The notes below the pieces were generated by a model. It saw nothing but the letters and a program-made list of their open reading frames with translations, made no database searches and had not been told where the DNA came from. From Eledone cirrhosa (Eukaryota): a stretch of DNA of 64,000 nt. Below are positions 12,044 through 61,218 of this stretch, one piece after another. The translations under genes and the position numbers were made by a program. The stretch lies in NCBI GenBank assembly GCA_964016885.1, contig OZ024740.1, positions 79,236,001 to 79,300,000 of the forward strand, read 5' to 3'. How positions within the stretch are numbered: position 1 is the first letter of the stretch; the number at the start of each line of letters is the position of its first letter.

Positions 12044-12303
12044 AATAGATAGATAGATAGATAGATATATTTCTTTATTTGCCATAAGGGCGCACAAGAA
12101 AAGGGGACAAAACAAAGACACATGCCGGGGATTTTACATAGAGTCGTGTAAAAATATTGAAAAAAACAAATTTAACAATCGAAATCCCCAATAGTAGTGA
12201 GGCGCCACAAATGGGTTGTTTAATACCCCATAGATAGAACATCCTCAACTTCAGGAGCGTGTTGTGCAAGTCCTCCTTTCTTCCTTTTGCTCTCTTCTTC
12301 AAC

Positions 12304-15300: not shown

Positions 15301-15685
15301 AAGACTCTAGACGCTTAAAGAAGTCTGGCCGCGATTGCCCAGTCGGGGCATAAACGGCCACCAGTCTGAAGGCTCTACCTCCAACACTGTTCACGTCTAG
15401 GACTACCAGTCTACTCTCCGGGTCCAAGTGTACTTGCTGTACTTCGAGGTCCAGGTTTTTCCGAAACATGACAGCCACTCCCCGTCCACCTCCTGGCTGA
15501 CAGAGAGATGCGTAGATCTCAAAGTCATTGAAGATGGGGGTTAGTTGCTGCCTGTTGTGGATCCTGGACTCGGTGATGGCTATCACATCCATACCGTGTG
15601 ACCTAAGGTCGTTTAAAAGTTGGCCCTGTTACCAGGGCCTCCCTAGGCCACGTACATTCACGCTTCCAACTCGTAAATTAGCCAT
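12304..15685 (-). pseudogene. Tx1 ORF2 (APE endonuclease, RT, zinc finger), disrupted
   Basis: MANLRVGSVNVRGL, VGDWNGILD, SDHKLV, GYWKLN, YADD; many stops and frameshifts. Confidence 0.92.
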
Positions 15686-15727
15686 GTTGGTGGAGAAGAG
15701 TTGGCGAAAAAGGACGAAAAGATGCAC

Positions 15728-17480
15728 TTACCTTTTCGTTTCCTGGAGATCGGGTTGTTCAATCTCCATTTGGGTGCTGGTGGGGGTGTTGGGTGGGGTG
15801 TTGAAACATTTTAATAGGACGCGGTTTATGGGTTTATGACAGGGGTTGCCCACGTCTTGCGAAAATTCAGTTTTCAGTTCACTATATGTTTCCATGGAAA
15901 CCCTTATCAGTTTGAGGTGTGGAGACGATTCTGCTTTAAGGAAAGTTTTTCCCTCCGTCTCCACCTTGGGGTTTTGGGAGGTGACCTCCATCAAATTCTT
16001 GTTGTTGGTGTTGATGTATGCGTATTGTTGTTTGTGTTTTTGTTGTGTTGTTTTAGTTTGTTGTTCGTCCGGGAGTTTTCTTTTTATGGTGGGTGCTTGT
16101 GTTTGGGGTGGTGTTGGTGTTTGTTTTGCTGGTAGGGAGGGGCGTGATTGTGGTGTTGTTTGTGTTGTTGTTTGTATTGGTGGTTGTGTGTTGGTGTTGG
16201 TGATTGGTGTTTTTTGTGCTTTGCGGTGCCACTTTTTTTGTTTTGTTTTTTTTATTTTCGAGGCTGTCCTTCATCTTCACTTGGGGATGAAGAAGTAGCC
16301 TCGTCTGACGATGATTCGTCATCAGGAGCTTGCGGTAGGGGGATGTTGTGTGGTGATGGTGTGTTTGTGTGTGTGTTTGTGGTAGTGTTGGATGGAGTAG
16401 GATGGGGTGGGACTGTGTCCTTCGGGGGAGTTGTATGTGTTTTTCCTGCTGTTGATGGTTGAGTGGCTGTTTGTTTTGGTGTGTTTGCTTGTTTTGTGTT
16501 GTGGTTGTTGTTGTGGTGGTGGTGGTGGTTGTTTTGGTGTTGGTGTTGGTAACAATATTTTGGGGGGATTGTTTTTTTAAAGTGTGTCTGTAAAGGGAAG
16601 GAGGCCTTTAGATGCGATGTATTGTTACATCGGAAGCAGTGTGGTCTTCTCCTTCGGTCGAAATGTTGATGTGGCTGTTGTTGTCGACCAGCACTCTTTC
16701 GGGTATTTTGAAGATTCTCTCCGGCCTCATTTGAACCAAATCTCTAAATCTGTACCAGACCACGTGTATCTGGTTGATTTCTTGATGGAGAAGATGTTAT
16801 CCTCTCCTTGTTCCAAGAATCCTGCCAGGTATGTAGGGAAAAAGGTGTATTTTTTTGACAGTATCGATATCACAGAATATTTTTGTGCGAGGGCCTCGCT
16901 TTTGAGGAGCACCGAAATACTCCCATATTGTTTGGCCCTCTGCATAAAGTCTATATTTGGCAATATCTCCTTCAAGGTTGCTTCAATTTCCTCTTGACTG
17001 AGGAATGCTGGTCTTTTTGTTTCATTTGAAACAGTTCTGAAGGTTACTGTCCTTCTAAGTGTTTCAATTCTGATTTCCGGGGATGAGTTTATTTTAAATC
17101 CATCTTGTTCTAAAATGATGAATTTCCTCCCCTCAGACAACATTTGTCTTGCATAGTGATATCTATATCCTTGAAGTCTTGTTTGTTTATGACTGTTTCT
17201 GCAAAAGTTATTTTTTTGTGTTGTTGTTGTGGTTGTGGTTGTCAGTTTTTCCATTTGTAGTTGTGTCAATTGTTTTATTTTCTGTTGTTGTTGGTGTCTG
17301 TTGTACACTGTGTGGTTCAATTTTGTTTTTATTACATACTTCACTTTCGTGAAACAAAACCTTGTTGTCATTATTCGTAGCTACATTGATGCAGGCAGAG
17401 CTTGTAGCAACGTTAAAGTCTATTTCTTTCTTTCTTTTTTCTTTCTCAACGTTCGCTAGCGTTCCTTGTACGCTAGCCAT
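15728..17480 (-). pseudogene. Tx1 ORF1 (RRM-like region and degenerate zinc knuckle), disrupted
   Basis: Homologous to ORF1 of copy E (AQKYSV..FFPTY, NP.VETEG, ends Q.TKR*); knuckle remnant CFRCNNTSHLKA. Confidence 0.8.
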
Positions 17481-24200: not shown

Positions 24201-24740
24201 CCCGTCAGCATTCATCTCCTCAGTGGCCGTATCTCTGTTCCAGGTATTATTTATCTCAGCATTCAGATCATTGTCTGCTTCGGGTGGTTCCTCCGTTCTC
24301 TCGACCTCTTCACTTTCATTTCCCACTGGCTCGTTTGCCTGGCATACTCCACCCTCCATCTCCAAGCTAATCTCTCTGCTCAGTTCCTCCAGTTCCAGCT
24401 CTCTTATCCACCCATTAGTTCTTATTACCCGAGCCTGCCCGGCCAGTTTTTGTTCATCTAATTTAAATGGACCAATCTCGTTCCAGATGTTATGCATCCT
24501 TTTCCTATAGCCTTTCTCCTTGGGGTTACTCTTCAAGTAACATTGCATAACAGTTTTATTCAATTCTTTCGTCCAGTTGGTTCTGGTCCCTTTCCTTCTT
24601 CTTCTTCCTTCGACACCAGCAGTATTGGTTGACAGCCAGGTCCCTGCTGCTGAGCCAGGGAGCACCTGTTGGGTGAGAGTCTGTCACATGACATTCTAGT
24701 CTCCATTTCACCGTTATTCGAACTGTTTAGGTTCGACATT
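21240..24740 (-). mobile_element. R4/Dong-clade non-LTR retrotransposon (RT plus restriction-like endonuclease)
   Basis: Single long ORF with few lesions; the 3' end runs into (TAA)n, the known Dong target type. The 5' boundary is approximate. Confidence 0.85.
21325..24706 (-). pseudogene. R4/Dong polyprotein: RT, CCHC finger, PD-(D/E)xK endonuclease
   Basis: WKSPGPDG, NYRPITCL, QGDSLSPLLF, FMDDLKL, CRICGEREETVAHIVSEC, KHD, RPDLVVLD..LIVDVACP. Frameshift near 22690, stop at 21673, probable frameshifts near both ends. Confidence 0.9.
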
Positions 24741-26983: not shown

Positions 26984-29070
26984 ATGGCTACGAAAAAGAA
27001 TTTTCATAGGTCACTCCCACTCATTCCGTCTTCTTCTTCCTCAATCGTCACTACAGCAGAGAGAAGATTGTCTCTCTCCCTCCCTTCTCTTTCGCAAGCG
27101 ACGACAGAAAAGAAAAATCTCGTGCAAAGCGTGCAAGATTTCTCCACGACGACGACGACAACGACGAAACAGGTGTGCGGGAAATACGAAAACCCATTTC
27201 ATTCGTCTGACGTCAGGAATAATAGCAGTAGCAGCCGTAATAACAACAGCAACAGTGACAAGGAAAACAACAGTAGCAGCCGCAACAGCATCAGCAGCAG
27301 CATAAACAACAACAGCATTAGCAGCAACAACAACAACAGCAGCAGCAACAACAACAACCACAGCAACAGCGGCGCTGTAGTCGTAGTACCTGCAGAAACA
27401 ACAAAAGTAACAGCAGCTCTGACGACAACAACAGCAGCAAAGAAAAACCAATCTCGTTTACAGGTATCGCAAAGAACCTGGAAACCATCCTCATAACAAA
27501 TGAGGAATTAGAGGAAGCGAAGAAGATGGTGACAAAAACTGGACACCGAGCAATCTGCAAGGCAGCCGAAAACTTTTTCGAAACCAAACAGCACTGTACG
27601 GTCACGTACCGTACAGTAAGTACAAAATCCCGTAGGGTTGAAAGAGCCACAGAGGCTCAAATACAAAAATCCTTGGGGTCTGTGTGGCAGCGGAAAACGC
27701 ACATCACCCGAGGCAAGAAATATGCCACCGTAGACGTACTTTTTGCCACACCCCAGGAGGCAAAGGCTCAATCCTTAGTGACCCTAAGGAGCGAGGAAAT
27801 GGTGTTGGTGCCCTCCTACTGCGGGCAAAAAATTGTGAGGGTCAAACTGACCCACGTCCCCCCCCCCCGGGATGGCCCCTTCTTGGCTGGCCGCGTCTGT
27901 CCTCGTCGGAATCGAGGACAAAACAACTGTACTGCAAGTACAGAAAAAAGTAAGAGAAGATTGGGTCGGTACCTCCATTGAGATGTTAATCCAAACCAAC
28001 CAGGAGTGCATCGAAGCTACCCCGGATGTGATAGACTTCGATAACGGCACTCAATTGCCCATAAGTATTGAGGGCAAACGCCCGAAATGCTTTCGCTGTG
28101 GATCGAAGACTCACCTCAGGGCCTTCTGCAACGAGAAGACCCTGAGAAAGGAGAAAACCCCCTCCTTCCAAAACCGGCTCCACGGCTACCAGCAACAGGA
28201 CAAGCGGCAACCAGGAACGATAGGTCCGTGGCATCCATACCCACGCCACGGAAATCAAAAGCAGCAGCAGCAGTGGAAGTATTAACAACAACAACAGCAA
28301 TACCAAATGCAGCTGCAACAGAGACTCCAGTGCAAACATCACCAACAACAAGTGAAAGAGTGGAGCTGGTACCCCTCCCCGACCTCACAGAATCAGACAT
28401 GGAGTGTGAGGTGGGAGAGGGATGGAAAAAGGTCGTAAGAAGGCACAAACGCAGAAGCAGCGCATCGTCGCCTTCGAAAAGGGAGGAAAGAAATAAAAAA
28501 AGGGTAATGGCTACTGCAAAGAGACTCACAGCAGCAACACCACCAACACCATCACCACCCACACTAGCACCACCATCACCACCGGCGACAACCCCACCGC
28601 CAACAACAACAACACCTTCAACACCACCACCACAAGTACCAACATCGCAAACACAACAACAAAACACACACACCCAGCAACAACGACAAGAAAATAGCAG
28701 AACCACACCCCACCCCCAGAAAAACAAATACACAGCAATAAATACACACAACAAGAAACTAATGACTTACATAATTGAACACACAGACATTTCACAACAC
28801 GAATACATAATACCAGCACCAATCAAAACGCCAACTAACATAAGACTGCTAAAAATAGCACAGAAACAATACACAAACATTAAAACGAAATTCCCCAACG
28901 CAGTTGGTGATTTCAGAGACCTAGGAGGGACTCTCAATCGAAGAGTATATTCGGACATACTCATAGAAGTGCAGACGAACAGCTGAAGGGACGATTCAAC
29001 GGTCCCTTCACCAGACGATCAAGTGAAAAGGGATGGAAAAACCGTCCCTCCTCTACGGAAAGTACGGTAA
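26984..29070 (+). pseudogene. Tx1 ORF1 (RRM-like region, CCHC knuckle), frameshifted
   Basis: KRPKCFRCGSKTHLRAFC. After a premature TGA at 28984 the frame continues to ...DGKTVPPLRKVR*, matching copy D. Confidence 0.85.
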
Positions 29071-29105
29071 GTGGTCTTTCCCATCTTTTCCACTCTATTT
29101 TAAAC

Positions 29106-32100
29106 ATGACCTCACTCAGAATAGGCAGCATAAATGCGCGTGGCTTGGGGTCGTCATGAAAGCAGGGTCACCTGCTCAACGACCTCAGGTCACTAAACAT
29201 AGATGTAGTGGCCATCAGCGAGACCAGAATCTCCGAAGCACGGGCCTTCGCACCGACGGCGGCTACGATGTGTACGAATCTCCCAGCCGTCCTGGATCGG
29301 GGGGTGGCGTTGCTGTGCTTTTTCGGAGATGTTTGGATCTCGCCATACTGGCCATCTACCTGGACCCAGAGGGTAAGTTGGTGGTGCTGGACGTGACCAG
29401 CGGAGACGAGCAAGCTTTCAGGCTAGTGGCCGCCTATGCCCCGACAGGAGCAGGGCGGCCTGATTTCTTCCGGGGTCTGGAGACCTTTCTTGGAACGTCC
29501 CGCTCTTTAGTGTTAGTGGGCGACTGGAACGGGATCTTAGATGCACGCTGGGACTGTGTGGGATTAGCGGATAGGGGTGGAGGGTGCAAGAGCCTCACCA
29601 ACCTGCTCAGGCGTTTTGAACTGTCTGATAGGTACCGATTGGATTTCCCGAATGTGCCAATGTGGACTTGGACAAATCGCATAGGGTCATCCAGATCATA
29701 TCTAGATAGAGTATTTTGTAGGGAAATAGATAGGTCTAGCATAGGCTGTCCACAATTCAAGATAGTCAGCTACACGGACCACAAATTCTGGATCTGTGTG
29801 CTTGACTTAGATAGGCTTCATAGACGAGGACCCGGCTACTGGAAGCTAAACGCGTCCTTACCAGCGCGCAAGGCCTACAGAGACCGGATTAGCGAACTAG
29901 TTAAGCGGGGGTTGACGGGGGCCATCGTCAACAACAAGTGGTGGTTTGCTCTGAAAAGAGCGAATAGAATAGAATCCATTAGGTTTAGTAAGGCTTTAGC
30001 AATAGAGAAAAATAGAGCAGAGGGAAAACTAGTTAGAAAATTAGACGAGGCGCTTAGCAAAGGCATTGCGACCGACGTGCTTGCGGGGAAATTGGCCCTT
30101 GACCAATTCTTCAATGCAAAGCACGAAGGCTGCGTTGTCAGAGCTAGGGTGCGTGCTCTCAGATACCAGGGGACGAAAGTCGTTCAATGGGCCCGAGTGG
30201 CGGAGGCGCGTCGTGGTAACAGAGCCACGATCCGGTCTTTGGTGGACCACGACGGGCGCATGCTACTCGATCCCGGGCAAATGTGTGAAGCTTTTCAGCG
30301 ACACTTCGCTCAGCTGTTCGGGGGCAGCGGTGGGCCGGGTCGAGGGATGGACTTTAGTGTCTACCTCGACGGACTGCCGCGGCTCTCGGTCACTGAGGCG
30401 GAGTGTTGCGAAAAGCCGATAACAGCCGCTGAAATAAGGGAGGCAATGACTGGCTGCACAAAGGGTATATCGTCTGGTTTGGATGGTCTGCCCTATGAAC
30501 TTTACGTACAGATGCCAGACTTGTTCGGAGGCCTCTTGGCGGACGTCTACTGCAACTGGCAACAGAACGGGAGAATTCCCAGTTCTGTGAGCCGAGGAGC
30601 GGTGGCACTGCTGAGAAAGGATCCGAACAAGGGGGATAACATAGATAATTTCAGACCCATAACTCTGCTAAACACAGAGTTCAAGATTTTGGCCAAGGTG
30701 CTAGCAAAGAGGTTGGCGCTTGTCGTTGGTGGTCTGGTGCGAGAGGCGCAGACATGCGCCATTCCCGACAGATCCATCCACGACAACCTCCACCTCATGC
30801 GATACATCTTAGAGAGGGTAGCTAGGGAAACTGGCACGGGTGGGTCCTTGATCAATTTAGATCAGTCGAAAGCTTTCGATAGGGTCGACCATCTTTACCT
30901 AGCGGCAGTCCTGAGGGCGGCTGGCTTTGGGCCCGTCTTCAGAAGCTGGATCGTTGCCATGCACAGCGACATCTGCTCTGTGGTGAGAGTGAACGGTCAC
31001 CTTTCGGAACCGTTCAACATCATGCGCTGGGTCCGCCAAGGATGTCCCCTCTCGTCCCTCTTGTACGTATTGACTCTCGAGCCATTACTGCACAAACTGG
31101 AGACGTTGAGGGGCGTCCCGCGCGAACTAGGATGCGGAAGATACGTGTCAGCATATGTGGACGATGTCACCGTAGTGGTGTCGAACGCCAAACACATCGA
31201 GGCGATCGGCACTACACTAAGAGAATACGAAGCGGTGACAGGAGCAATGATCAACCAGGAAAAGTCAGTGGGCCTGCAGCTCGGCACCTGGAGAGGCAGG
31301 TCCATGCCGTCCAACAGCGTCGTCGGACGCTGGGCGGACGGACCGGTTAAATTGCTAGGGGTCTGGTTCGGTCCGGACTTCCAGACGGACAAAAACTGGG
31401 ACGAGGTGACGAGCAGGGTGGCTTCTCTCACCCAGAAATGGGCGGAGAGGAAGCTATCCCTGAAAGGTCGAGCGGAGGTGGCTAACGCGTACATCGCGTC
31501 TGTCATCTGCTACCGCCTGACCGTCGTACCTTGTCCTAAGCCCCGCCTGACTGCGCTGGAGCGTTTGCTCTTTCGCTTTTTGAGGAAGGGACGCGCTCCG
31601 ATGGTCAGGCGGTCCATCTGCTGTCAACACCCGCTACGTGGAGGGCTGGGAATGCCGTGGCTGATGATGCGCAGACACGCGCTCAGGCTACGACATCTCC
31701 ACCTCTTCCTCGACGGTGATCAGGTGTGGTCGCCGTTTGCTAGACACGTATTTCTCCAGCTCGTTTCCTTGACGGAGCTGCAGTCCTGTGTCAAGAGAAG
31801 ACCGTGAGGGACCGCCTGGAGACTGGAATGTCTTCAGGCGCTCACAGCTCTCGACCAATCGGGCAATGTGATCGGTGGAAACTCCACCTTGGCGTTCTAT
31901 AGAGGATTAGTGGAGAGGAAGAGCGACGACGTACTTGGGGAAACTCTAGACGTCGACGAAAATCAACTAGCCAATCTCTTCGGAAGAACTTTCGGGCCGG
32001 CACCTATGGACAACTTCCAGAAATCTCTGGCCTGGCAGTGCTACCGAGGAGCCTTGCCAGTTCGAGATAAACTCTACAGGCATGGAGGTGCCGTCCACCG

Positions 32101-32521
32101 GGCATGTCCGAGTTGCGCTCAGGGCGACGAAACCGTCCTGCACGCACTCGTCCAGTGTCCGAAAATTGCTGACTTGTGGGTTTATGTCGAACACCTGCTG
32201 TCGCGTGTAGGACGGATCCGGCTATCATCTGAGTCCATCGTGAAGATTTCCCCGCCCTCTTCCTTTAGCCGGGAAGGGCAGGCAGTTTTTATCTGTCTGG
32301 TGGCCATGGCGAAATAGATAGTATGGTGGACACGTTTGAAAGGGCTGAAGACGAGCACTTACCTCTTCGGTGATGCCCTGATTAACTTTTGCAAATTTCA
32401 TTTGAAAAGGAAAATCAGGGTAGAGAGGGAAGTGCTCTCTTCCCAGCATTTTGTTGAAAGATGGGTGAGAGAAGCAAGAATGGCCCTAGTGAATGGCCCT
32501 ACTCTGTGTACGTATCTGTAA
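29106..32521 (+). pseudogene. Tx1 ORF2 (APE, RT, zinc finger)
   Basis: True start MTSLRIGSINARG; GDWNGILD, FRPITLLN, KAFDRV, QGCPLS, YVDD, CPSC..ETVLHALVQC. Early stop and frameshift, stops at 31805 and 32315. Confidence 0.95.
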
Positions 32522-33019
32522 ATTACAGGTGGAAAACTGGGAGAGGGCACTTGCCTTGGTGGTCAGGGTCACTGTGGCCTTTTACTGGGCTTTCTCCACA
32601 AATGTCCCTCCGAAGCCCCTCCCCCCCCCCACCTATTGGGGAATTTTTCATTGTTATTTTTTTGTTACATCCTCTGTTTTTGTTCTTTACACGCAGAAAT
32701 GCCCATTTGTACCGTCCTGTATTGTCCTGCACTGTCCTTAATGTCTACTTTATGTAAACCTTTGTGGTTAATAAAGAAATCATCATTATTATTATTATTA
32801 TTATTATTGGCGACCTACGTAGTAAATCGTATCATCGTGAGCTCCGCAAAGGTTTGTTATTTCCGTTTGTTAAAAATTGCCATTTATGGAAAATTTTTAT
32901 TGTTAACTATATATAAGCGCACATACATTGTTTTGCGAAAAGGACACCCAAAAAGATTGGGGCCTTGTGCCCAAAATTTAAACTTTTATGATTATCAAAA
33001 AATTTCTTTGAAAAATAAA

Positions 33020-35014
33020 ATGGCTAATTCACCTCTGCACCAAGCAACTGAAAGCCTTCCTCACAAATTAACACCTCACACCGACACCACCATTGTAAAT
33101 GATACTACGTTTGCCAACACAAACAATTTAAGCACTAGCAATATTTTAAATTTGTCTCAGGCAGACATTCATTTCCCGCCATTACCAATGAGTGCAGGTG
33201 TTAAAGACGCCACCGCCACCACCACCACCACCGCGACAACCCCCACCCCCACCACCACCGCGACAACAGAAACAAAAGGAAAAAATAAATCAACTCGTGA
33301 TGTCGAAATATTTTCACCCAAAATGGACTCTTCCAAACCGAACTCCACTGACGTCACCACCACCACAACTGACACTAAAATAAATAATAACAAAAATAAC
33401 GATAGCAACAACAACAACAATGACATTAAAAAGACCACCCTGAGTTTTGCCAGAGTAGCAAAACAGTGCGAAGCATTTACGGTAACTCAGGAGGAATTAG
33501 AAAATGCCAAAAAAATGGTAAAGAAAGATGGGTACAGGGTCAGTCTCACCCCCCTCCCACCTAATAAAATGGAGCATCGGCGCCTATGCACCGTGTCGTA
33601 TCGAACAATAAATGTAAAATCGCGCCGAGTGGATCGGGTATCCGAGTCCCAAATCCAAAAAGCTTTGGGACATGTGTGGGCAAGAAAAACCCACATCAGA
33701 CGTGGGCGGAAGTATGGAACCGTGGACGTGTTCTTTGAAACACCAGAGGAGGCTAGAGAACACTCCATGGCCCCATTAAGAAGTGACGACTTCACACTCG
33801 TCCCAAGCTATTGTGGCCAGAGACTCGTAAAGATCAGGGTGACCCACGTTCCACCAGCCATCGAAATTCCCTGGCTAATAGCGGCCGTCATCGCCGGCAT
33901 CGAAGCCAACACAAAGATAATAGCAATAGCAAAAGAAAAGCAGGAGAACTGGTCCGGATCTGGGATGGAGCTCCTGATCCAAGCGGACCAAAAAAGCATT
34001 GAGGAGATCCCAGAGGTAATAGACCTCACTAACGGCAACCACCTCACCGTAATTGTCGAGGGCAGAAGGCCTAGGTGTGTCGTTTGTGGTGAAGGAACCC
34101 ACCTAAGGGCTTTCTGCACTCAGGCTAAAAGGTTGAGGCCACCTCTCCTACCCACCCCAGTGACTCAACCATCAACACCACCAGTAGCAGAGATGGCAGC
34201 AACAACTGTAGCAGCAACAGCATTAGCAACTATAACAGCAACAATCCCAGCAACAGTAGCAAAACCAACACCACCACCACCAGCAAACCAACACCACCAC
34301 CACCCAACGCTTCAGAACTAGCACCAGCGCCTACACCATCCACCACGCCACAACCAAAACTAACGCCTGTGGAGGATTTTCCACTCCCCGGCCTATCACA
34401 ACTGGAGACAGATTGTGACGACGAGGAGTGGGAAACGGTATCAGGAAAAAAAAAAAGAAACCAAAAAAGAAAAAATGCTCTTCCTTCCCCTCTCCAAAAA
34501 CAAAATACAGAGGGAAACAAATAAATTTACAAACAAAAAAGTTAGGACAGATATGCCACCATCCACACCAGCATCACCAACCCCATCAACCCAAACACCA
34601 ACACCATCACCATCATTAACCCCAACACCACCATCACCTACACCACAAAAGTCACCAAAATGCGAAACAGAAACAAACCCACAACAAACGCAAACAAAAC
34701 AAAACAACCAAAACGATACACACTACACAGCATTAAATTTGAACAACAAGCAATTATTACACTACATCCAACACAACACCAGCATCACAGAAAAAGACTA
34801 CACAACAACCCAAAAATTCACACCACCTCCACACATACAAATCACTCGCATCACACAGAAAACGTACATGACACTAAAACAAAAATTCCCCAAAGACATC
34901 GGAGACTTCCGACAAGCACTCTCCAGGAGGATTTATAAGGACATCCTTCCTGAGGAGGCCACAAGCAGTGAAAAGGATGGAAAAACCGTCCTTCCTCTAC
35001 GAGAAGTAAGGTAA
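33020..35014 (+). pseudogene. Tx1 ORF1 (RRM-like region, CCHC knuckle), frameshifted
   Basis: RRPRCVVCGEGTHLRAFC; ends DGKTVLPLREVR*. Confidence 0.87.
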
Positions 35015-35048
35015 GTGGTCTTTCCCATCTTTTCCACTCCTTTTCAAC

Positions 35049-38000
35049 ATGACCTCACTCAGAATAGGCAGCATAAATGCGCGTGGCTTGGGGTCGTCAT
35101 GGAAGCAGAGCCACCTGCTCAACGACCTCAGGTCCCTAAACATAGATGTAGTGGCCATCAGCGAGACCAGAATCTCCGAAGCACGGGCCTTCGCACCGAT
35201 CTTCGGCGGCTACGATGTGTACGCATCTCCCAGCCGTCCGGGATCGGGGGTGGAGTTGCTGTGCTTTTTAGGAGAGGTTTGGATCTTGCCATACTGGCCA
35301 TCTTCCTGGACCCAGAAGGTAAGTTGGTGGTGCTGGACGTGACCAGCGAAGACAGGCAAGCTTTCAAGTTAATGGCCGTCTATGCCCCGACAGGAGCAGG
35401 GCAGCCTGATTTCTTCCGGCGGCTGGAGACCTTTCTTGGAACGTCTCGCTCTTTAGTGTTAGTGGGCGACTGGAACGGGATCTTAGATGCACGCTGGGAT
35501 TGTGTGGGATTAGTGGATAGGGAAGAAGGGTGCAAGAGTCTCACCAACCTTCTCAGGCGTTTTGAACTGTCTGACAGGTACCGATTGGATTTCCCGAATG
35601 TGCCAATGTGGACTTGGACAAATCGCATAGGGTCATCCAGATCATATCTAGATAGAGTATTTTGTAGGGAAATAGATAGGTCTAGCATAGGCTGTCCACA
35701 ATTCAAGATAGTCAGCTACACGGCCCACAAATTCTGGATCTGTGTGCTTGACTTAGATAGGCTTCATAGACGAGGACCCGGCTACTGGAAGCTAAACGCG
35801 TCCTTACCAGCGCGCAAGGCCTACAGAGACCGGATTAGCGAACTAGTTAAGCGGGGGTTGACGGGGGCCATCGTCAACAACAAGTGGTGGTTTGCTCTGA
35901 AAAGAGCAATTAGAATAGAGCCCATTAGGTATAGTAAGGCTTTAGCAATAGAGAAAAATGGAGCAGGGGGAGAATTAGTTAGAAAATTAGACGAGGCGCT
36001 TTGCAAAGGCATCGCGACCGACGTACTTGCGGCGAAATTGGCCCTTGACCAATTCTTCAATGCAAAGCACGAAGGCTGCGTTGTCAGAGCTAGGGTGCGT
36101 GCTCTCAGACACCAGGGGACGAAAGCCGTTCAATGGGCCCGAGTGGCGGAGGCGCGTCGTGGCAACAAAGCCACGATCCGGTCTTTGGTGGACCACGACG
36201 GGCGCATGCTACTCGATCCCGGGCAAATGTGTGAAGCTTTTCAGCGACACTTCGCTCAGCTGTTCGGGGGCAGCGGTGGGCCGGGTCGAGGGATGGACTT
36301 TAGTGTCTACCTCGACGGACTGCCGCGGCTCTCGGCCACTGAGACGGAGTGTTGCGAAAAGCCGATAACAGCCGCTGAAGTAAGGGAAGCAATGACTGGC
36401 TGCACAAGGGGTAATTCGCCTGGTTTGGATGGTCTGCCCTATGAACTTTACGTACAGATGCCAGACTTGTTCGGAGGCCTCTTGGCGGACGTCTACTGCA
36501 ACTGGCAACAGAACGGGAGAATTCCCAGTTCTGTGAGCCGAGGAGCGGTGGCACTGCTGAGAATGGATCCGAACAAGGGGGATAACATAGATAATTTCAG
36601 GCCCATAACTCTGCTAAACACAGAGTTCAAGATTTTGGCCAAGGTGCTAGCAAAGAGGTTGGCGCTTGTCGTTGGTGGTCTGGTGGGAGAGGCGTAGACA
36701 TGCGCCATTCCCGACAGATCCATCCACGACAACCTCCACCTCATGCCATACATCGTAGAGAAGGTAGCTAGAGAACCTGGCACGGGTGGGTCCTTGATCA
36801 ATTTAGATCAGTCGAAAGCTTTCGATAGGGTCGACCATCGTTACCTAGCGGCAGTCCTGAGGGCGGCTGGCTTTGGGCCCGTCTTCAGAGGCTGGATCGC
36901 TGCCATGCACAGCGACATCTGCTCTGTGGTGAGAGTGAACGGTCACCTGTCGGAACCGTTCAACATCATGCGCTCGGTCCGCCAAGGATGTCCCCTCTCG
37001 TCCGTCTTGTACGTATTGACTCTCGAGCCATTACTGCACAAACTGGAGACGTTGAGGGGCGTCCCGCGCAAACTAGGATGCGGAAGATACGTGTCAGCAT
37101 ATGTGGACGATGTCACCGTAGTGGTGTCGAACGCCAAACACATCGAGGAGATCGGCACTACACTAAGAGAATACGAAGCGGTGACAGGAGCAATGATCAA
37201 CCAGGAAAAGTCAGTGGGCCTGCAGCTCGGCACCTGGAGAGGCAGGTCCATGTCGTCCAACAGCGTCGTCGGACGCTGGACGGATGGACCGGTTAAATTT
37301 CTAGGGTCTGGTTCGGTATGGACCTCAAGACGGACAAAAACTGGGACGAGGTGACGAGCAGGGTGGCTTCTCTCACCCAGAAATGGGCGGAGAGGAAGCT
37401 ATCCCTGAAAGGTCGAGCGGAGGTGGCTAATGCGTACATCGCGTCTGTCATCTGCTACCGCCTGACCGTCGTACCTTGTCCTAAGCCCCGCCTGACTGCG
37501 CTGGAGCGTTTGCTCTTTCGCTTTTTTGTGGAAGGGACGCGCTCCGATGGTCAGGCGGTCCATCTGCTGTCAACACCCGCTACGTGGAGGGCTGGGAATG
37601 CCGTGGCTGATGATGCGCAGACACGCGCTCAGGCTACGACATCTCCACCTCTTCCTCGACAGTGATCAGGTGTGGTCGCCGTTTGCTAGACACGTATTTC
37701 CCCAGCTCGTTTCCTTGACGGAGCTGCAGTCCTGTGTCAAGCGAAGACCGAGAGGGAGCGCCGGGAGACTAGAATGTCTTCAGGCGCTCACAGCCCTCGA
37801 CCAATCGGGCAATGTGATCGGTGGAAACTCCACCTTGGCGTTCTATATAGGATTAGTGGAGAGGAAGAGCGACGACGTACTTGGGGAAACTCTAGACGTC
37901 GACGAAAATCAACTAGCCAATCTCTTCGGAAGAACTTTCGCGCCGGGACCTATGGACAACTTCCAGAAATCCCTGGCCTGGCAGTGCTACCGAGGAACTT

Positions 38001-38458
38001 TGCCAGTTCGAGATAAACTCTACATGCATGGAGGTGCCGTCAGCCGGGCATGTCCGAGATGCGCTCAGGGCGACAAAACCGTCCTGCACGCACTCGTCCA
38101 GTGTCCGAGCATTTCTGACTTGTGGGTTTATGTCGAACACCTGCTGTCGCGTGTAGGACGGATCCAGCTATCAGCTGACTCCATCGTGAGGATTTCTCCG
38201 CCCTCTTCCTTTAGCCGGGAAGTGCAGGCAATTTTTATCTGTCTGGTGGCCATGGCGAAAGAGATAGTATGGTGGACACGTTTGAAAGGGCTGAAGACGA
38301 GCACTTACCTCTTCGGTGATGCCCTGATTAACTTTTTCAAATTTGATTTGAAAAGGAAAATCAGGGTAGAGAGGGAAGTGCTCTCTTCCCAGCATTTTGT
38401 TGAAAGATGGGTAGGAGAGGCAAGAATGGCCGAGCCTACTCTGAGTATGTGTCTGTAA
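35049..38458 (+). pseudogene. Tx1 ORF2 (APE, RT, zinc finger)
   Basis: Near-identical to ORF2 of C; frameshifts near 35250, 37305 and 37525, stop at 36695. Confidence 0.95.
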
Positions 38459-38731
38459 ATTACAGGTGGAAAACTGGGAGAGGGCACTTGCCCTGGTGGT
38501 CAGGGTCACTGTGGCCTTTTAATGGGCTTTTTCCACGAATGTCCATCGGAAGTCTCCCCCCTATTGGGGAATCTTTCATTGTTATTTTTTTTTGTTACAT
38601 CCTCTGCTTTTGTTTTTTACACGCAGAAATGCCCATTTGTACCGTCCTGTATTGTCCTGTACTCTCCTTAATGTCTACTTTATGTAAACCCTTGTGGTTA
38701 ATAAAGAAAGCATTGTTTTTATTATTATAGA

Positions 38732-55020: not shown

Positions 55021-55220
55021 TGATATAGACGTGAATTACTTCGCTCCGGATTTTTACGGATTATTGTTAAAAAAACTGTGAGTTCATTGCTCAATTTAAT
55101 AGCATTGTTTAGTTTAACCCCTTGCCTGGGCCTTCAGACGTTGAGTCAACTAATTTTCGCCCCTTTCTGGGGCGAAATTTTCATTTTCATCTCAAAACTG
55201 TGTAGACTTGGTAGTCAGCA

Positions 55221-57037
55221 ATGGATGCCATTTCCACCTCGCACACTGTCGTGAGTGCCACGCCCACTGAGAAAAGTGGTGGAGGGAAGGTAGGAGTACA
55301 AAGCATTATCGAAAAACGTTGAAAATATTGAAACCACGAAACCAAACCCGGTAAATAATACCAGCACCAACAACAAGAACAATGACAATAACACCACATC
55401 CAACAACTGCAACAATAGCAACACCAAGGAAAACATGAACAATATTACCAACAGTGACAACAACAGCAGCAACAAAAAGACAACAACACCAAAACAACAT
55501 TCGCACAGACTGTAAAAAAAAAACGAACTATACACGCCAATAGACATAACAAATGCTAAACAACTATTACAAGACGCAAAACAATTCGTGACTTTTGGCG
55601 AAAACGGTGCTTTTAGCATCAATTCTCCACAGGAATTACGTAGAGAGGCTGTCCTGAAAACTGTGGTTTTTCAGGACAATATCGAACGAAACAAGAAAAC
55701 CAGCTCAATTATCACAAAATGAAATTGAGCTGGTTCTAAAAGATGCAATGAAGGACTTAACCTTCATACAAAAAGGTAAACTGTTTGGTTGCATTTCGGT
55801 GCTAATGAACAACCAGTCAACAGCTCAAAAGTACTCGGTATCACCCATTGTGTGTCCCCGCTTCACCTTTTTCCCCACATACAGGGGAAAAAGGACACAA
55901 AGAATAAAAATAATGAGTATCACACCAAATGTAAATATTTGGTGGATACTATGTGGAATCATTAACTTTGACGAAGACAAGATAATTTTAATGGGAAAGT
56001 CCCCCGGAGGTGTATTTGGTGGGACCACCGTAGAAGTTCTGGTGCAAATGAGCCCAGAACGAATAGCGAATATCCCACAACGTGTGCCTCTGGACGGGCT
56101 AACTTATATAAACATTTCAGTGGAGGGAAGGCGGCCGTCATGTTACCACTGCTTAAGCAGGGGTCACCTGAGGGCTGCCTGTCCTCAATTAACAAGTAAA
56201 AAAAAGGCTCTTCTGCCAACCCCGAACACGACAACACAACCACCACCACCACCACCACCACCACCACCACCACAACAACAACAACAACAACAACAACAAC
56301 CACAACAACACGGAAAAATAACAACACAAAACACTGTTCCACCCAACCCCTCCCCACCTAAAACAAATACAAATGCAACCACAACAAAACCCCAAAATAT
56401 ACCCCTCCCCAACAACACGGAAGAGGACTCCGTATCAACGTCACCCAGTGACGACGAGGGAGAACCCTTTCAACAGGTGAAAAGGAAAGAAAAAAGGCAC
56501 CACATTAACAAAAATGCCACAAACACACAACCACCAGCATAAACAGAACAAACATCACAAATAAAAAAACCTACCCCTCCCCAAAACATAACACATACTA
56601 CAAAACGCAAACACGCAAAAGAACAACAAACAAAAACAAACACAACACAACAAAAACTCTATACATACATTAACAAGAACAATAAAACGTTGATGAAAGC
56701 GATAGAAAATAACCCTTCGGTGGAAACCGAAGGGATCACTTTCACCTACGCAGCGAACAAACCTCACCTAATGATGATTAGGGTCCCAACGGAAACCTAT
56801 GTAACGTTGAAAAAGAACCATCCAATGCATGTGGGGACCAACTGCACCAAACCACATAACAGCGTCCTATTGAGATGTTTCCCCACCCCCACACCAGACA
56901 CCCACACCCCACCAAACACCCTAATCTCACCACACACTGATGTCCTCACCCCACCACAAACCACCACACCACCAAACAACCCTTCCAACACCCCCATGGA
57001 AATTGTGCAGCCTGGTCCCCAGCAGACGAAGAGGTAA
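55221..57037 (+). pseudogene. Tx1 ORF1 (RRM-like region, CCHC knuckle), disrupted
   Basis: RRPSCYHCLSRGHLRAAC; ends PGPQQTKR*. Confidence 0.83.
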
Positions 57038-57079
57038 GTAATTTCCTTTCCTCTTCCTTTTTAATTCTTCAGCACCAAC

Positions 57080-60000
57080 ATGGCCAATATAAGAGTTGGA
57101 TGTGTGAATGCACGCGGCTTAGGGGATGTCCTGGAAACAGGGCAAACTCTTAAATGACCTCAGGTCGCACAGAGTGGATGTAATGGTTATTTGCGAGTCC
57201 AGGATCAGCAGCGAGCGCCAACTGGCCCCCATCTTCGACGACTTTGAGATCTACGCATCTCTCTGTCAGCCGAGGGGTGGGGTTGGGGTTGTCGTTCTGC
57301 TGCGAAAGTACCTGGGTCTTGCCACACAGAAGGTACACATGGACCCGGAGGGTCGACTGGTGGTTTTAGAGGTCGGAAGTGGTGAAGGTGGAGCTTTCAG
57401 GCTGGTGGCAGCGTATGCCCCATCTGGGACCCCGCGACCGGACTTCTTCCGACGCCTGGAGAATTTCCTGGGAACGACTCGCTCCTTGCTTTTAGTGGGG
57501 GACTGGAATTGTATCCTGGATGCACGTTGGGACTATGTAGAGGCATGTCCCGATAGAGGGGGGTGTAACAGCCTCAAACGATTAATCGGCCGATTTGATC
57601 TGGCCGATAGATATCGACTAGATTTTCCGACTGTGCCACGGTGGACGTGGAGTAATCGCAGCGGAACATCTAGGTCGTACCTAGATAGGTTCCTAGTTAG
57701 AAATAAGGATAGGGACATATTAAGCTGTCCACGAATGTTCATGGTTGACTATTCGGATCACAAGTTGGTGACCGGAGTGGTCAACCTTGATAGAACTCAT
57801 AGACAGGGACCCGGTTACTGGAAGCTAAACTTGTCTTTACCGACAAACAAAGCTTACAGTAAGCGGATTAGCACACTAGTTAAGAAGCGTTTGACGGGGG
57901 CAATTGTCAACAGCAGGTGGTGGGGCTCTCTCAAGAGAGAAATTAGAATAGAATCGATAGGTTTTAGTCGGGAATTAGCATCAGATAGGAATAGAACTGA
58001 AAGGGAATTAACAAATAGAGTAGAAGAGGCGATTAGGAGTGGCAACGTGGCCGGCGTGCTGGCGTCAAGAACGGCGCTAGACCAGTTCTTTGATGCGAAG
58101 CACGAGGGCTGCGTTGTCAGGAATAAAATACGTGCTCTGGGTAACTAGGGAGCCAAAGCTGTTAGCTGGGCCCGAGTGACAGAGGCAAAAAGTGGAAACA
58201 AGTCCACGATTCGGTCTTTGAAAGACCAGGATGGACGCGTGACCCTTGAACCTGAGCGGATGAGCGCGGCTTTCAACGGCGCTTTGCACGACTGTTCGGG
58301 AGGGGCGGCGGGCCGGGAGGGGCGGCGGGCCGGGTGGGGCCATGGATTTCGGTCCATACCTCGACGGTCTGGCGCGGCTCTCGGACGGGGAGGCGAAGTC
58401 CTGCGAGAGGCCGATTTCAGCCGCTGAAATAGGGGAAGCGCTGAGCCAATGCGGCAAACGCAAATCTCCGGGTCTCGATGGTCTACCATACGAACTTTAT
58501 GTAGCGATGCCGGGCTTGTTCTCCGGTCTCCTCGAGGCGGTCTACTGCAACTGGCAACAGAACGGGAGAATTCCCAGTTCTGTGACCAAGGGCGTAGTCA
58601 CGCTGGTGAGGAAGGACGAGAACAAGGGGGATGACATAGATAACTTCAGGCCCATAACTCTGCTAAACACAGAGTTAAAGATTTTGGCCAAGGTGTTAGC
58701 GAAGAGGTTGGCGCTTGTCGTCGGGAACCTGGTGGGTGAAGCGCAGACATGCGCAATCCCGTCCAGATCCATACACGACAACCTCCACCTCATGCGATAC
58801 ATCGTAGAGAGGGTAGGGAACGAACCCGGCTTTGGTGGGGCCCTGATCAACTTGGATCAATCTAAGGCGTTCGATAGGGTTGACCATCGGTACCTGGATG
58901 CGGTGCTCGCGGCGGCAGGCTTCGGACCCGTTTTCAGGGGGGGGGGGGGCTGGATTGCTGCAATGCACAGCAGCAACACCTGCTCGAGGGTCAAGGTGAA
59001 CGGCTACCTCTCGGAGCCGTTCCAAATCACGCGATCCATTCGACAGGGATGCCCTCTCTCCTCCCTCCTGTATGTGTTGGCTCTCGAGCCACTACTGCGG
59101 AAGCTGGAGCTGTTGCAGGGCATCCCCTTGGAACCGGGATTGCGGAAAGCGGTGTCGGCCTACGCCGATGACGTGACAGTAATGGTGTCGTGCGCCTCGG
59201 AAATCGGGCAGATCGGCACCTTACTGGATGAATATGAAAGGTTCACAGGAGCCAAGCTGAACCGGGACAAGTCCGTCAGTTTGCAACTCGGGACGTGGAG
59301 GGGCAAAACGATGCCCTCCGACGGCATCGTCGGACGCTGGACGGAGGGACCGGTGAAGCTGCTCGGGGTCTGGTTCGGACCGGACCTCCAGGTGGAGAAA
59401 AACTGGGACGAGGTAACGGGCAAGGTGTTTGCACTTGCCCAGAAGTGGGCCGAGTGCAAACTATCCCTGAAAGGTTGAGCGGAGGTGGCGAACGCTTATA
59501 TAGCGTCCGTCATCTACTACCGCTTGACCGTCGTGCCTTGCCCAGAGAAAACACTCGCCAAAATGGAGCGCGTGCTCTTCCGATTTCTTTGGAAGAAGCG
59601 GGCTCCTTTGGTGAGAAGATCCATCAGCTGTCAACACCCTTCGAACGGAGGGCAGGGGATGCCGTGGCTGACGATGCGTAGACACGCATTAAAGCTATGG
59701 CACCTCCAGGTATTCCTCACCGGTCAGCCGGTGTGGGCCCTGTTTGTGAGGCGAGCCTTTCCGAGACTCGTCTCACTCACCGAGCTGCATCCTGGGTCAA
59801 GCAAAGACCGAGAAAAGTGGGCGACTGGCACATTGAATGTGCCCAGGCGCTCACGGCCCTCTGGCAAGCGGATCCGGCAATCAGTGGAGACTCAACCTCA
59901 ACATTCTATAGAGGGTTGGTGCGCAGTAAGTGCGACGACGCTCTCAGAGAGGCTCTGGGTATGGAGGGAGATGAGCTGGCCAATCTGTTCTGTAGGACGT

Positions 60001-60542
60001 TTGGCCCGGGACCGATGGACAACTTCCAAAAGTCCCTGGCTTGGCAATGTTACCGAGGAGCTCTACCCGTTCGGGACAAGCTCTACAGACACGGGCGCCC
60101 GGGTAGGGACCCTTCGAAGAAGATCTGTCCGAGATGCGTGCGTGACGAGGAAACCGTCGCACACGCATTCGTACACTGCCCGGGCGTTGCTGACCTGTGG
60201 GGCTATGTGGAACGACTACTGTCGCGGGTGGGACCAATCCGGTTGACCACCGAGAACATTGTCACGATCAAACCGCCGCCCCCTTTCAAAAACGAAGGAG
60301 AGGCGGTTTTCCTCTGTGTGATAGCCATGGCGAAAGAAGTTGTATGGTGGACAAGGTTGAAAGGGCTGAGGTCAGACACCTTTCTCTCCGGCCAACAACT
60401 GGTCTTTTTTTTCAAGTACCACTTTAGAAGAAGGATCAGAATGAAGAGAGAGGTGCTCTACTCCAGCAAGTTTTATGAAAGATGAGTGAAAGTAACGAGA
60501 ATGGCCCGAGTGAATGGGCCTTCTCTCTATATCAGCCTGTAG
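57080..60542 (+). pseudogene. Tx1 ORF2 (APE, RT, zinc finger), disrupted
   Basis: MANIRVGCVNARGL, GDWNCILD, SDHKLV, KSPGLDGLP, YADD, CPRC..ETVAHAFVHC. Confidence 0.95.
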
Positions 60543-61218
60543 GTGAGAGAGGAGAAGAATGAGAAGAGGAAGGAAGCACCCGCTCTTTGTGCTCCTGAAG
60601 AGGAGGGTTGCACATTTTTTCGGGGGTGTGTGCGACCCATGTCAATGCCCCTCCCTATTGAGGACATCGATTGTTAAATTTAATTTGTTATATGTTTTTT
60701 ACACGCCTTTTTAAATGTATGTAAACTCCCCCCTTTGTATTTGTCCCAATCTTTGATGCCCTGGTGGCAAATAAATAGAAATTTATATCTACTACACGGT
60801 ACTCTTCCAATCCCCCTCTCTATATCAATCAACATTAAACTCTCCCCCTCTTTATATTTACCACGACACTGTATCTCTCAATGCCTCTCTCTCTATCAAT
60901 TACTCTTAGGCCTTGAATACCCCCCCCCCCCACCTCGCTTAATGATTTTTCAGATTTTTCCACACACACCCTCCCCCATTTTCATTTTACCCGCCACCCT
61001 CCCCGCTTATTAAAGTTTGCTAAATTTTATTGTAAGTGATTAATATCGATACAGCACCTGGAGAATCTAATAATAATTTTAACTGTCATTAAAAAAACAT
61101 TACATATTACAAAAAAAAAACATTATAAGAAATCCCATATTTACGAACGCACACTGTACAGTTACCGATTTCCACCCCCGCTTACAAGAATGTCAACAAA
61201 TGTCCACCCACCTCCCGA

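What the first reader, a model, noticed from the sequence alone, without database searches (positions are those of the whole stretch)
57031..57082. Tx1 ORF1 stop codon is embedded in a perfect 5' splice site in all four LINEs; a mini-intron would fuse ORF1 to ORF2
Seen in sequence: ORF1 ends Arg-stop as AG|GTAAGT (A 15731 minus, D 35011, E 57034) or CG|GTAAGT (C 29067), followed by a ~30-nt pyrimidine tract and AAC-ATG. This holds although the A/E and C/D families are otherwise very divergent here. In E, removing 57034-57072 (39 nt, ending TTCTTCAG) gives ..TK-S-T-N-MANIRVG in frame. In C (29067-29119, 53 nt) and D (35011-35062, 52 nt) the first AG is CTCAG and gives ..V-R-IGSINARG in frame, even though their stop-to-ATG spacers (38 and 37 nt) are out of frame. 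In A the first AG is a disfavoured, out-of-frame GAG; the next, AAG at 15663 (69 nt), is in frame. Established: GTAAGT is the U1-complementary donor consensus, and ORF2 of bicistronic LINEs is usually explained by reinitiation. Inference: regulated splicing deletes the stop and makes an ORF1-ORF2 polyprotein while unspliced RNA is retrotransposed. Alternatives are a donor to a distal acceptor or a U1-binding element. I do not know of this being described for Tx1 elements. Caveats: the introns are very short, an in-frame AG has about a 1/3 chance per family, and in C/D the pyrimidine tract is not adjacent to the AG.
Basis: partly seen in the sequence, partly recalled or inferred. Interest (0 to 1): 0.9.

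Follow-up and report, generated by a model that had tools for sequence, protein, structure and literature searches.

The report
Splice donor plus zipper flanking ORF2
About twenty related jumping-gene (LINE) families in this animal genome keep a splice-donor signal where their first gene ends, beside a predicted RNA zipper that pairs the two ends of the second gene; together these likely decide whether the second gene is cut out to give a first-gene-only message, rather than fusing the two genes, but no RNA data were available to confirm any splicing.

Summary
The motif is real and selected. 92 of 100 ORF2 starts, picked without regard to the donor, carry a donor motif upstream (chance 1.3). 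It stays when the ORF1 stop changes codon or moves away. The mini-intron fusion is not supported: spacer AGs occur in 7 of 21 families, in frame in 2, and no copy lacks the interval. The junction pairs with the ORF2 stop region 3.5 kb away in a predicted 60-70 bp helix with compensatory changes, burying the ORF2 AUG and a stop-codon TAG that is also ORF2's best acceptor. Two chimeric subfamilies are joined exactly at a donor, each after a CAG: likely fossil splices. Best model (0.45): a splice-or-zip switch giving copia-like ORF1-only mRNA. Main rival (0.30): U1 binding without splicing. The zipper confounds the acceptor signal, no ORF1-only retrocopy was found, and no RNA run was listed. This scan noted the donor, intron idea and zipper before on other pieces of this genome; the listings I saw did not mention the chimeric junctions.

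The parts
57031..57039 (+). Element E: 5' splice-site motif (exon end 57031-57033, GT at 57034) containing the ORF1 stop TAA 57035-57037
57028..57100 (+). Element E: 5' arm of the predicted zipper (exon end, pyrimidine spacer, ORF2 ATG at 57080, first codons)
   Evidence: -54.3 kcal/mol versus best other ORF2 window -43.6
60518..60587 (+). Element E: 3' arm of the predicted zipper; includes ORF2 stop TAG 60540-60542 (candidate 3' splice site) and the purine-rich start of the 3' UTR
57034..60542 (+). Element E: candidate facultative intron of 3,509 nt = spacer plus all of ORF2; removing it would recreate the same Arg-stop end of ORF1
   Evidence: in silico only
55221..57037 (+). Element E ORF1 (interrupted in this copy), one CCHC knuckle at 56141
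57080..60542 (+). Element E ORF2: APE endonuclease, reverse transcriptase, zf-RVT (interrupted in this copy)
55078..55083 (+). Element E: second donor-like motif GTGAGT near the 5' end
60770..60775 (+). Element E poly(A) signal, about 230 nt after the ORF2 stop
29064..29108 (+). Element C donor (GT 29067), spacer and ORF2 ATG 29106; 5' zipper arm 29057-29151
32495..32565 (+). Element C 3' zipper arm with ORF2 stop TAA 32519-32521 (no AG at the stop; a CAG ends at 32528)
32660..32696 (+). Element C 3' UTR pyrimidine run plus CAG, alternative candidate acceptor
35008..35051 (+). Element D donor (GT 35011), spacer and ORF2 ATG 35049; 5' zipper arm 35001-35073
38429..38502 (+). Element D 3' zipper arm with ORF2 stop TAA 38456-38458 and a stretch complementary to the donor itself
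   Evidence: -67.8 versus best other window -42.6
38590..38626 (+). Element D 3' UTR pyrimidine run plus CAG, alternative candidate acceptor
15665..15734 (-). Element A donor (GT at 15731), spacer, ORF2 ATG at 15685; 5' zipper arm
12265..12328 (-). Element A 3' zipper arm with ORF2 stop TAG 12306-12304
   Evidence: -49.5 versus best other window -48.9 (weak margin in this aged copy)

Best explanation
These LINE families carry a conserved splice-donor motif at the end of ORF1 and a predicted long-range helix between the start and the end of ORF2, which together likely form a splice-or-zip switch that would make an ORF1-only mRNA from some transcripts and keep the rest full length. Shown by sequence: the motif, its independence from the stop codon, the complementarity of the two ORF2 ends with compensatory changes, and an acceptor-like site at or just after the ORF2 stop in every family examined. 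Inferred: U1 binds the donor during transcription. When the ORF2 stop is reached, either the spliceosome joins the donor to the stop-codon TAG (or, in C/D, to a 3' UTR CAG), removing ORF2 and leaving ORF1 ending at or near its normal end with a short 3' UTR; or the zipper closes first and buries the acceptor, the ORF2 AUG and in some families the donor, so the RNA stays unspliced, is exported and serves for ORF2 synthesis and as the template. The spliced RNA lacks the 5' arm and encodes no reverse transcriptase, so it would rarely be copied back. ORF2 is still started at its own start codon, probably by reinitiation, not by fusion.
For: Donor; TAA, TGA and TAG forms all keep GTRRGT; kept where ORF1 reads through it (phase-1 families, P, X). 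In E, F, F2, K, N, N2, N3, O and P the core GT or the TAA after it stays unpaired in the predicted duplex, so the zipper alone does not explain its invariance. Splice competence: two chimeric subfamilies are joined exactly at an E/G-type donor boundary to sequence that natively follows a CAG, with only AG shared. In X2 (3 copies, L186-L188) the 5' part is 95-97% identical to G copies that have a native donor (L280, L294, L318) and 79% to the 3' parent X1. Head-to-tail arrays that allow read-through are present (L164/L165, L173, window C-D). Acceptor: the ORF2 stop is TAG in 18 of 19 families and ranks first of 58 conserved YAG columns in ORF2 for upstream pyrimidines (14.9/20) and downstream purines (16.6/20). 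A stop follows within 3 codons in the donor's own frame in 13 of 17 families (phase permutation p=0.007, not corrected for the tree). The only family that lost the TAG (D/C) has a second pyrimidine-run CAG in its 3' UTR, shared with family R. Zipper: own-family duplex mean -62.3 versus cross-family -49.4 kcal/mol; beats every other ORF2 window tested in 18 of 20 families and all 100 shuffles in 17 of 20; 258 of 400 cells paired versus 122-153 when slid and at most 252 in 2,000 family shuffles. ORF2 holds 0-2 poly(A) hexamers, none shared by all families, so little needs U1 protection. Precedent: Drosophila copia splices out all of pol (PMC5580714, passages).
Against: No spliced RNA was seen. 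No ORF1-plus-3'UTR retrocopy was found in E/G (7 hits), C/D (17 hits), the F group (1 hit), H (0 hits) or A (2 hits). The acceptor signal is confounded by the zipper: the G of TAG and the next three bases pair with the bases before the ORF2 ATG, and the purine run pairs with the spacer, so the downstream stops may be by-products. TAG conservation alone is not significant (11 of 48 comparable columns are as conserved). On the tree the phase match rests on about one exon-2 indel plus stop retention in the phase-1 clades; A, G, G3, F2, K and X would gain 18-79 residues in most copies, and D has no AG at the stop. The chimeric junctions were found by searches anchored at the donor, are only two events, used acceptors in a downstream element rather than the ORF2 stop, and the native-donor parent of X1 was not sampled (best 87%). 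The helix covers the acceptor rather than bringing it next to the donor. The pairing register was taken from family E's own prediction.
Confidence: 0.45

Rival explanations
1. U1 binds the motif without routine splicing. It supports transcription or holds unfinished RNA in the nucleus until the 3' UTR arm is made; the zipper then masks the site, licenses export, damps ORF2 initiation and folds the poly(A) tail near the ORF1 stop to avoid nonsense-mediated decay.
For: No spliced retrocopies. A second donor-like motif lies near the 5' end in many families, also without spliced copies in E. In A, D, G, H, M and M2 the 3' UTR carries a complement of the donor that tracks its variant; in D it is stronger than the U1 duplex (-20.0 versus -11.7). 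A retained donor motif blocks export of unspliced RNA (PMC4380460, abstract), and folding the poly(A) tail near a stop suppresses decay (PMC2689704, abstract). U1 has a splicing-independent role in EVD (PMC5580714, passages).
Against: Few poly(A) hexamers in ORF2. In about 9 families the donor core is not covered by the helix. It does not explain the frame-matched stops after the ORF2 stop or the chimeric junctions, except as occasional leakage.
Confidence: 0.3
2. The zipper is the selected feature (translation control or recognition by ORF2 protein), and the donor-like sequence is kept by pairing, by binding of a protein other than U1, or as an inherited relic.
For: The helix is well supported. 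All families descend from one radiation. The donor pairs with the 3' UTR in six families.
Against: Paired spacer bases change freely with compensation while four donor positions are invariant in 21 of 21 families and match the U1 consensus pattern. Weaker intron halves (GTAGGT, GTAATT) go with exon-side CAG in H, I and R, though not in J. Chimeric junctions fall at the splice boundary.
Confidence: 0.13
3. One reading: a 39-69 nt mini-intron is removed in some transcripts, fusing ORF1 to ORF2.
For: In-frame joins exist in E, G and C/D. One A copy (L252) has a 130-nt deletion from the donor to a TAG inside the endonuclease, one base off an exact splice. Family P lacks the ORF2 ATG.
Against: Acceptor absent in 14 of 21 spacers and out of frame in 5 of the 7 present. 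No copy lacks the interval although such RNA would be copied in cis. The ATG and its context are conserved. P has no in-frame AG near its junction (sequence).
Confidence: 0.05
4. Chance: an Arg codon plus a stop codon happens to look like a donor.
For: One ancestral origin for all families.
Against: The motif persists when the stop changes codon or moves to another frame; 92 of 100 versus 1.3 expected; flanking columns vary.
Confidence: 0.02

Closest known systems
Drosophila copia and plant Ty1/Copia (EVD, BARE1) spliced gag-only subgenomic RNA (PMC5580714, passages seen; BARE1 paper PMC3735527 seen as a search listing only)
   Same: A conserved donor at the end of the structural ORF; a predicted intron covering the whole enzymatic ORF as in copia; a stop right after the junction; excess structural protein as the likely purpose.
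   Different: Those are single-ORF LTR elements with the spliced RNA shown. Here a two-ORF LINE already has an ORF1 stop, the candidate acceptor is the ORF2 stop itself, a long-range helix pairs both ORF2 ends, and splicing is not shown.
Human L1 splice sites and SpIREs (PMC5860796, passages seen)
   Same: A LINE with functional-looking splice sites; retrotransposed spliced RNA as a fossil record.
   Different: The L1 events in the passages seen are intra-5'UTR or 5'UTR-to-ORF1 and reduce activity. Here the donor is at the ORF1 end, is under purifying selection, and the candidate fossils are amplified inter-family chimeras.
Termination-reinitiation of ORF2 in L1 and SART1 (PMC5972666, passages seen)
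   Same: Separate ORF2 start shortly after the ORF1 stop; a structure near the restart site (SART1).
   Different: The structure here is a 3.5-kb long-range pairing with the ORF2 stop and 3' UTR; the passages seen mention no splice donor.
Microsatellite-targeting Tx1-clade LINEs such as Kibi and Koshi (PMC4494074, passages seen); L1-Tx1 families listed for Octopus vulgaris (PMC13282606, passages seen)
   Same: ORF1 with CCHC knuckle, ORF2 with APE endonuclease, RT and zf-RVT; insertion in simple repeats; AATAAA before the tail.
   Different: Targets here are ATCT-type and ATT-type repeats. PMC13282606 has no hit for 'splic'; in PMC4494074 the passages shown for that term concern snRNAs, not LINE splicing.

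Membership tests
Tx1-clade non-LTR retrotransposon | RT phylogeny places it with Tx1, Keno, Kibi, Koshi | not testable with these tools
Closest solved protein is human L1 ORF2p (E 1e-48) over R2 (2e-18).
Tx1-clade non-LTR retrotransposon | ORF2 with APE endonuclease, RT and C-terminal zinc domain; separate ORF1 | tested here: met
   Pfam PF03372, PF00078, PF13966; ORF1 CCHC knuckle in C, D and E.
Tx1-clade non-LTR retrotransposon | Target-sequence preference (common in the clade) | tested here: met
   Ends flanked by ATCT-type or ATT-type repeats in the copies printed; read by eye, not counted.
Copia-type spliced structural-protein subgenomic RNA | Conserved 5' splice site at the end of the structural ORF | tested here: met
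Copia-type spliced structural-protein subgenomic RNA | Acceptor that removes the enzymatic ORF | tested here: inconclusive
   ORF2 stop TAG ranks 1 of 58 conserved YAG columns but is confounded by the zipper and absent in D/C.
Copia-type spliced structural-protein subgenomic RNA | Stop codon shortly after the junction | tested here: inconclusive
   13 of 17 families; few independent changes on the tree.
Copia-type spliced structural-protein subgenomic RNA | Spliced RNA detected and translated | not testable with these tools
   No RNA holder listed.
Spliceosomal mini-intron fusing ORF1 to ORF2 | Conserved in-frame YAG 39-69 nt after the donor | tested here: not met
Spliceosomal mini-intron fusing ORF1 to ORF2 | Intron-less retrocopies (expected by cis preference) | tested here: not met
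SpIRE-like spliced retrocopies | Junction exactly at a donor and after a YAG | tested here: inconclusive
   Two inter-family junctions; a DNA-level or template-switch origin with 2-nt homology is not excluded; L252 is one base off.

The most novel reading that the evidence does not exclude
A LINE lineage has made its whole ORF2 a facultative intron controlled by a 3.5-kb RNA zipper that pairs the ORF2 start codon with the ORF2 stop codon: unzipped RNA is spliced to an ORF1-only mRNA, zipped RNA is the genomic template. Stray splicing from the same donor across tandem copies builds new active families with swapped ORF1.
Probability: 0.3. Interest if true: 0.85.

Novelty: new variant of a known kind. 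Interest (0 to 1): 0.62.

Why it matters
How bicistronic LINEs make far more ORF1 than ORF2 protein, and how their RNA survives with a 3.5-kb stretch after the ORF1 stop, are open questions usually answered by reinitiation alone. A selected donor plus a co-evolving start-to-stop zipper offers a concrete, testable RNA switch with exact coordinates in about twenty natural variants. If the chimeric junctions are splices, they also show a route for ORF1 swapping between LINE families. Five searches aimed at it listed no paper whose title or abstract start describes this for a LINE; that library lacks most subscription papers and Repbase reports, and I read no supplements.

Tried and rejected
RNA evidence: no RNA holder listed; the three runs listed behave as genomic DNA contigs of one sample. 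The joint table was cut (15 of 491 shown), so it says nothing about rare joints. ORF1 homolog search found none; ORF2 homologs at 39-43% identity carry no usable names and came without DNA. The 18 non-native hits first looked like copies spliced to a distal acceptor; they are chimeric subfamilies. L203 and L204 looked like GT..AG deletions; they are small local mutations. L208 is an unrelated flank or insertion. The pattern could not see exons starting with GT; one search covered that. No spliced copy from the E 5' UTR donor (1 hit, a 1-nt deletion). Protection against premature polyadenylation as the main purpose: weak, since ORF2 has few hexamers. A local hairpin between the pyrimidine run and the purine run at the ORF2 stop appears in single-sequence folds but not in the consensus fold, which keeps only a 6-bp hairpin upstream with no covariation. 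Denominators for the D, F, H and A searches were not counted. The host's minimum intron length was not measured. Pairing of ends used 62 elements in which both ends were found by pattern; 54 entered the alignment; 19 of 22 families entered (F2b, G3 and X left out as near-duplicates; D and Q also left out of the 13-of-17 count); searches used those 19 plus R.
Full report
Observation. The elements are two-ORF LINEs: ORF1 has a CCHC knuckle; ORF2 has endonuclease, RT and zf-RVT domains and is closest to human L1 ORF2p among solved structures. They lie in a 3.0-Gb genome; earlier scan notes call it octopus-like, which I did not test. Near-identical copies keep the motif in 30 of 30 E, 20 of 20 D and 18 of 20 A loci, but these were picked by similarity that includes the motif.

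An unbiased census. A pattern for the ORF2 N-terminus that ignores the donor gave 13,726 hits (control 5). I fetched all of the first 100. Ninety-two carry a donor motif (53 AG|GTAAGT, 24 AG|GTAGGT, 6 CG|GTAAGT, 5 AG|GTGAGT, 4 others), 7 have a single point change, and 1 has a deletion that is not GT..AG; shuffles give 1.3. The copies fall into about 22 families with 68-97% ORF2 DNA identity, one radiation. Across 21 representatives four donor positions are invariant and two nearly so, while neighbours vary. All three stop codons occur within the motif. In 10 of 22 families ORF1 reads through the donor in phase 1 or 0 and stops later. So the motif is selected for itself and is not a by-product of Arg-stop.

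The mini-intron fails. An AG lies between donor and ATG in 7 of 21 representatives (O read) and is in frame only in E and G. The C/D acceptor is the Arg codon of the conserved N-terminal motif, in frame automatically for a phase-2 donor; A has CGA there. A fusion RNA would carry its own RT, so intron-less copies should exist. Searches for exon ends followed by non-native sequence found none: E/G 23 and 7 hits against 500 native copies, C/D 17, F group 1, H 0, A 2. DNA contigs over the D junction show one joint, not GT..AG. Forty further E/G copies were all unspliced. One A copy, L252, lacks 130 nt from the donor to a TAG in the endonuclease, one base off an exact splice; I count it as ambiguous.

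The far end of ORF2 looks like an acceptor. The ORF2 stop is TAG in 18 of 19 families, after a pyrimidine run and before a purine run; it ranks first on both counts among 58 conserved YAG columns in ORF2. Joining donor to this TAG recreates Arg-stop in E (including the window copy), H, I, F and J, and gives a stop within two codons in the phase-1 families M, M2, N, N2, N3, O and G2, where the downstream stop is shifted by one base. Overall 13 of 17 families stop within three codons (permutation p=0.007; 3' UTR background 0.10). Against this: TAG conservation alone matches 11 of 48 comparable columns; the tree implies few independent changes; A, G, G3, F2, K and X would be extended; D/C has TAA. 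D/C does have a pyrimidine-run CAG in its 3' UTR, shared with R and absent in M.

The zipper. An earlier scan note (e1-8673698) claimed the two ends of ORF2 are complementary. I tested it. The junction (-10 to +85) pairs with the ORF2 stop region (-30 to +45) at -49 to -73 kcal/mol. The own-family mean is -62.3 against -49.4 across families; the duplex beats all other ORF2 windows tested in 18 of 20 families (not F, H) and all 100 shuffles in 17 of 20 (not F, H, K). In a fixed register taken from E, 258 of 400 cells pair, against 122-153 when slid and at most 252 in 2,000 family shuffles, with double changes in D (two positions), J/P and N/N2. The AUG context pairs with the stop context, the pyrimidine spacer with the purine run, and the first codons with the last. 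In A, D, G, H, M and M2 the 3' UTR also pairs with the donor; in about nine families the donor core stays open. All four window copies form it, A only marginally. It does not explain the invariant donor.

Possible fossils of splicing. Eighteen hits and three are chimeras. In X1 a G-group ORF1 end is joined at the donor boundary to F-family sequence that natively follows a CAG; downstream DNA is about 96% F-like. In X2 (L186-L188) a G-type ORF1, 95-97% identical to G copies with a native donor and 79% to X1, is joined at the donor boundary to X1 sequence that follows a C-rich run and CAG. Both junctions share only AG. Splicing across head-to-tail neighbours, which occur here, explains both. Caveats: the searches were anchored at the donor (one search showed no such join at offsets just downstream in E/G); there are two events; the native parent of X1's 5' part was not found among 40 sampled copies; template switching is not excluded.

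How it most likely works. A retained donor motif hinders export of unspliced RNA (PMC4380460, abstract), so keeping one needs a benefit. I think the likeliest benefit is an ORF1-only spliced mRNA, as in copia (PMC5580714, passages), with the zipper as the competing state that protects full-length RNA (0.45). The spliced RNA lacks RT and the 5' arm, which would explain why it leaves no copies, but that absence still counts against the model. The main rival is U1 binding without routine splicing, with the zipper acting as a completion signal, a brake on ORF2 initiation and a fold-back against decay (PMC2689704, abstract) (0.30). Zipper only 0.13, mini-intron fusion 0.05, chance 0.02. ORF2 keeps its own start, consistent with reinitiation as described for L1 and SART1 (PMC5972666, passages). 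Shown: motif, its selection, complementarity, chimeric junction positions. Inferred: U1 binding, helix formation in vivo, any splicing.

Relation to what is known. It works like the copia/EVD subgenomic strategy if the best model holds, but membership of that kind is unproven because the spliced RNA is not shown. Tx1 membership fits architecture and targets but was not tested by RT phylogeny. Ten literature searches were run; I saw listings for all, passages of PMC5860796, PMC5580714, PMC13282606, PMC4494074, PMC1636488 and PMC5972666, and abstracts of PMC2689704 and PMC4380460. None of what I saw describes an ORF1-end donor or an ORF2 start-to-stop zipper in a LINE. Subscription papers, Repbase notes and supplements were not seen. 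The U1 consensus used for scoring and the cis-preference argument are from my own knowledge. This scan has noted the donor, the ORF2-intron idea and the zipper before on other pieces of the same genome; those notes are not independent evidence.

Verdict. Observation confirmed; first interpretation partly supported; new variant of a known kind; interest 0.62, or 0.85 if the switch and splice-made chimeras are confirmed.

Noticed in passing
L131/L168, L135/L169, L236-L240, L259, L261, L266, L275 (family P): ORF2 has ATA instead of ATG in 11 of 11 distinct copies seen. ORF1 runs through the donor in phase 0 and stops at a TAG overlapping that ATA. No in-frame AG lies nearby, so a near-cognate restart or a -1 slip at the stop is likely. 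The family makes up about a tenth of the census.
   Followed up: partly
window 55078-55083; 5' ends of L071-L076, L084, L085, L164-L166, L169, L171, L173, L176, L182, L183: A second donor-like motif lies roughly 25-80 nt from the 5' end in many families, followed by a T-rich run; weak or absent in D and M. No spliced copy found for E.
   Followed up: partly
L092-L113 (18 of 23), L118/L167, L186-L188: Chimeric subfamilies X1 and X2 with junctions exactly at a donor boundary after a CAG; X1 has amplified although its ORF1 now reads through the spacer and overlaps the ORF2 start.
   Followed up: yes
L252:1500-1530: A-family copy with a 130-nt deletion from the donor to a TAG inside the endonuclease, one base off an exact splice.
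   Followed up: partly
window 32770-32810; L164/L165; L173: Head-to-tail arrays of these elements separated by simple repeats (window C directly followed by D), as expected from shared microsatellite targets.
   Followed up: partly
window 28088 versus 34076: C and D have similar junctions and ORF2 starts but different ORF1 knuckle regions and 5' UTRs, suggesting ORF1 exchange within the D group.
   Followed up: no
window 32528 and 38465: In the window's C and D copies a CAG followed by GT lies 7 nt after the ORF2 TAA stop; most other D copies examined have AAG there and family R a second TAG.
   Followed up: partly
window 32362 and 38308, minus strand: Antisense GGTAAGT after an Arg codon near the 3' end of ORF2 in C and D, followed by a Kozak-like ATG; one homologous site, probably chance.
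   Followed up: no
last 40 nt of ORF2 in 19 families (window about 60502-60521 in E): A 6-bp hairpin whose loop lies where a branch point would be expected; conserved but without covariation.
   Followed up: partly
window 21673-24683, minus strand: A different LINE with RT and a weak zf-RVT match but no endonuclease match in the pieces scanned; clade not determined.
   Followed up: no
L072:3200-3800: Depth of genomic contigs rises about fivefold at the ORF1/ORF2 boundary, consistent with ORF1 differing more between families than ORF2.
   Followed up: no
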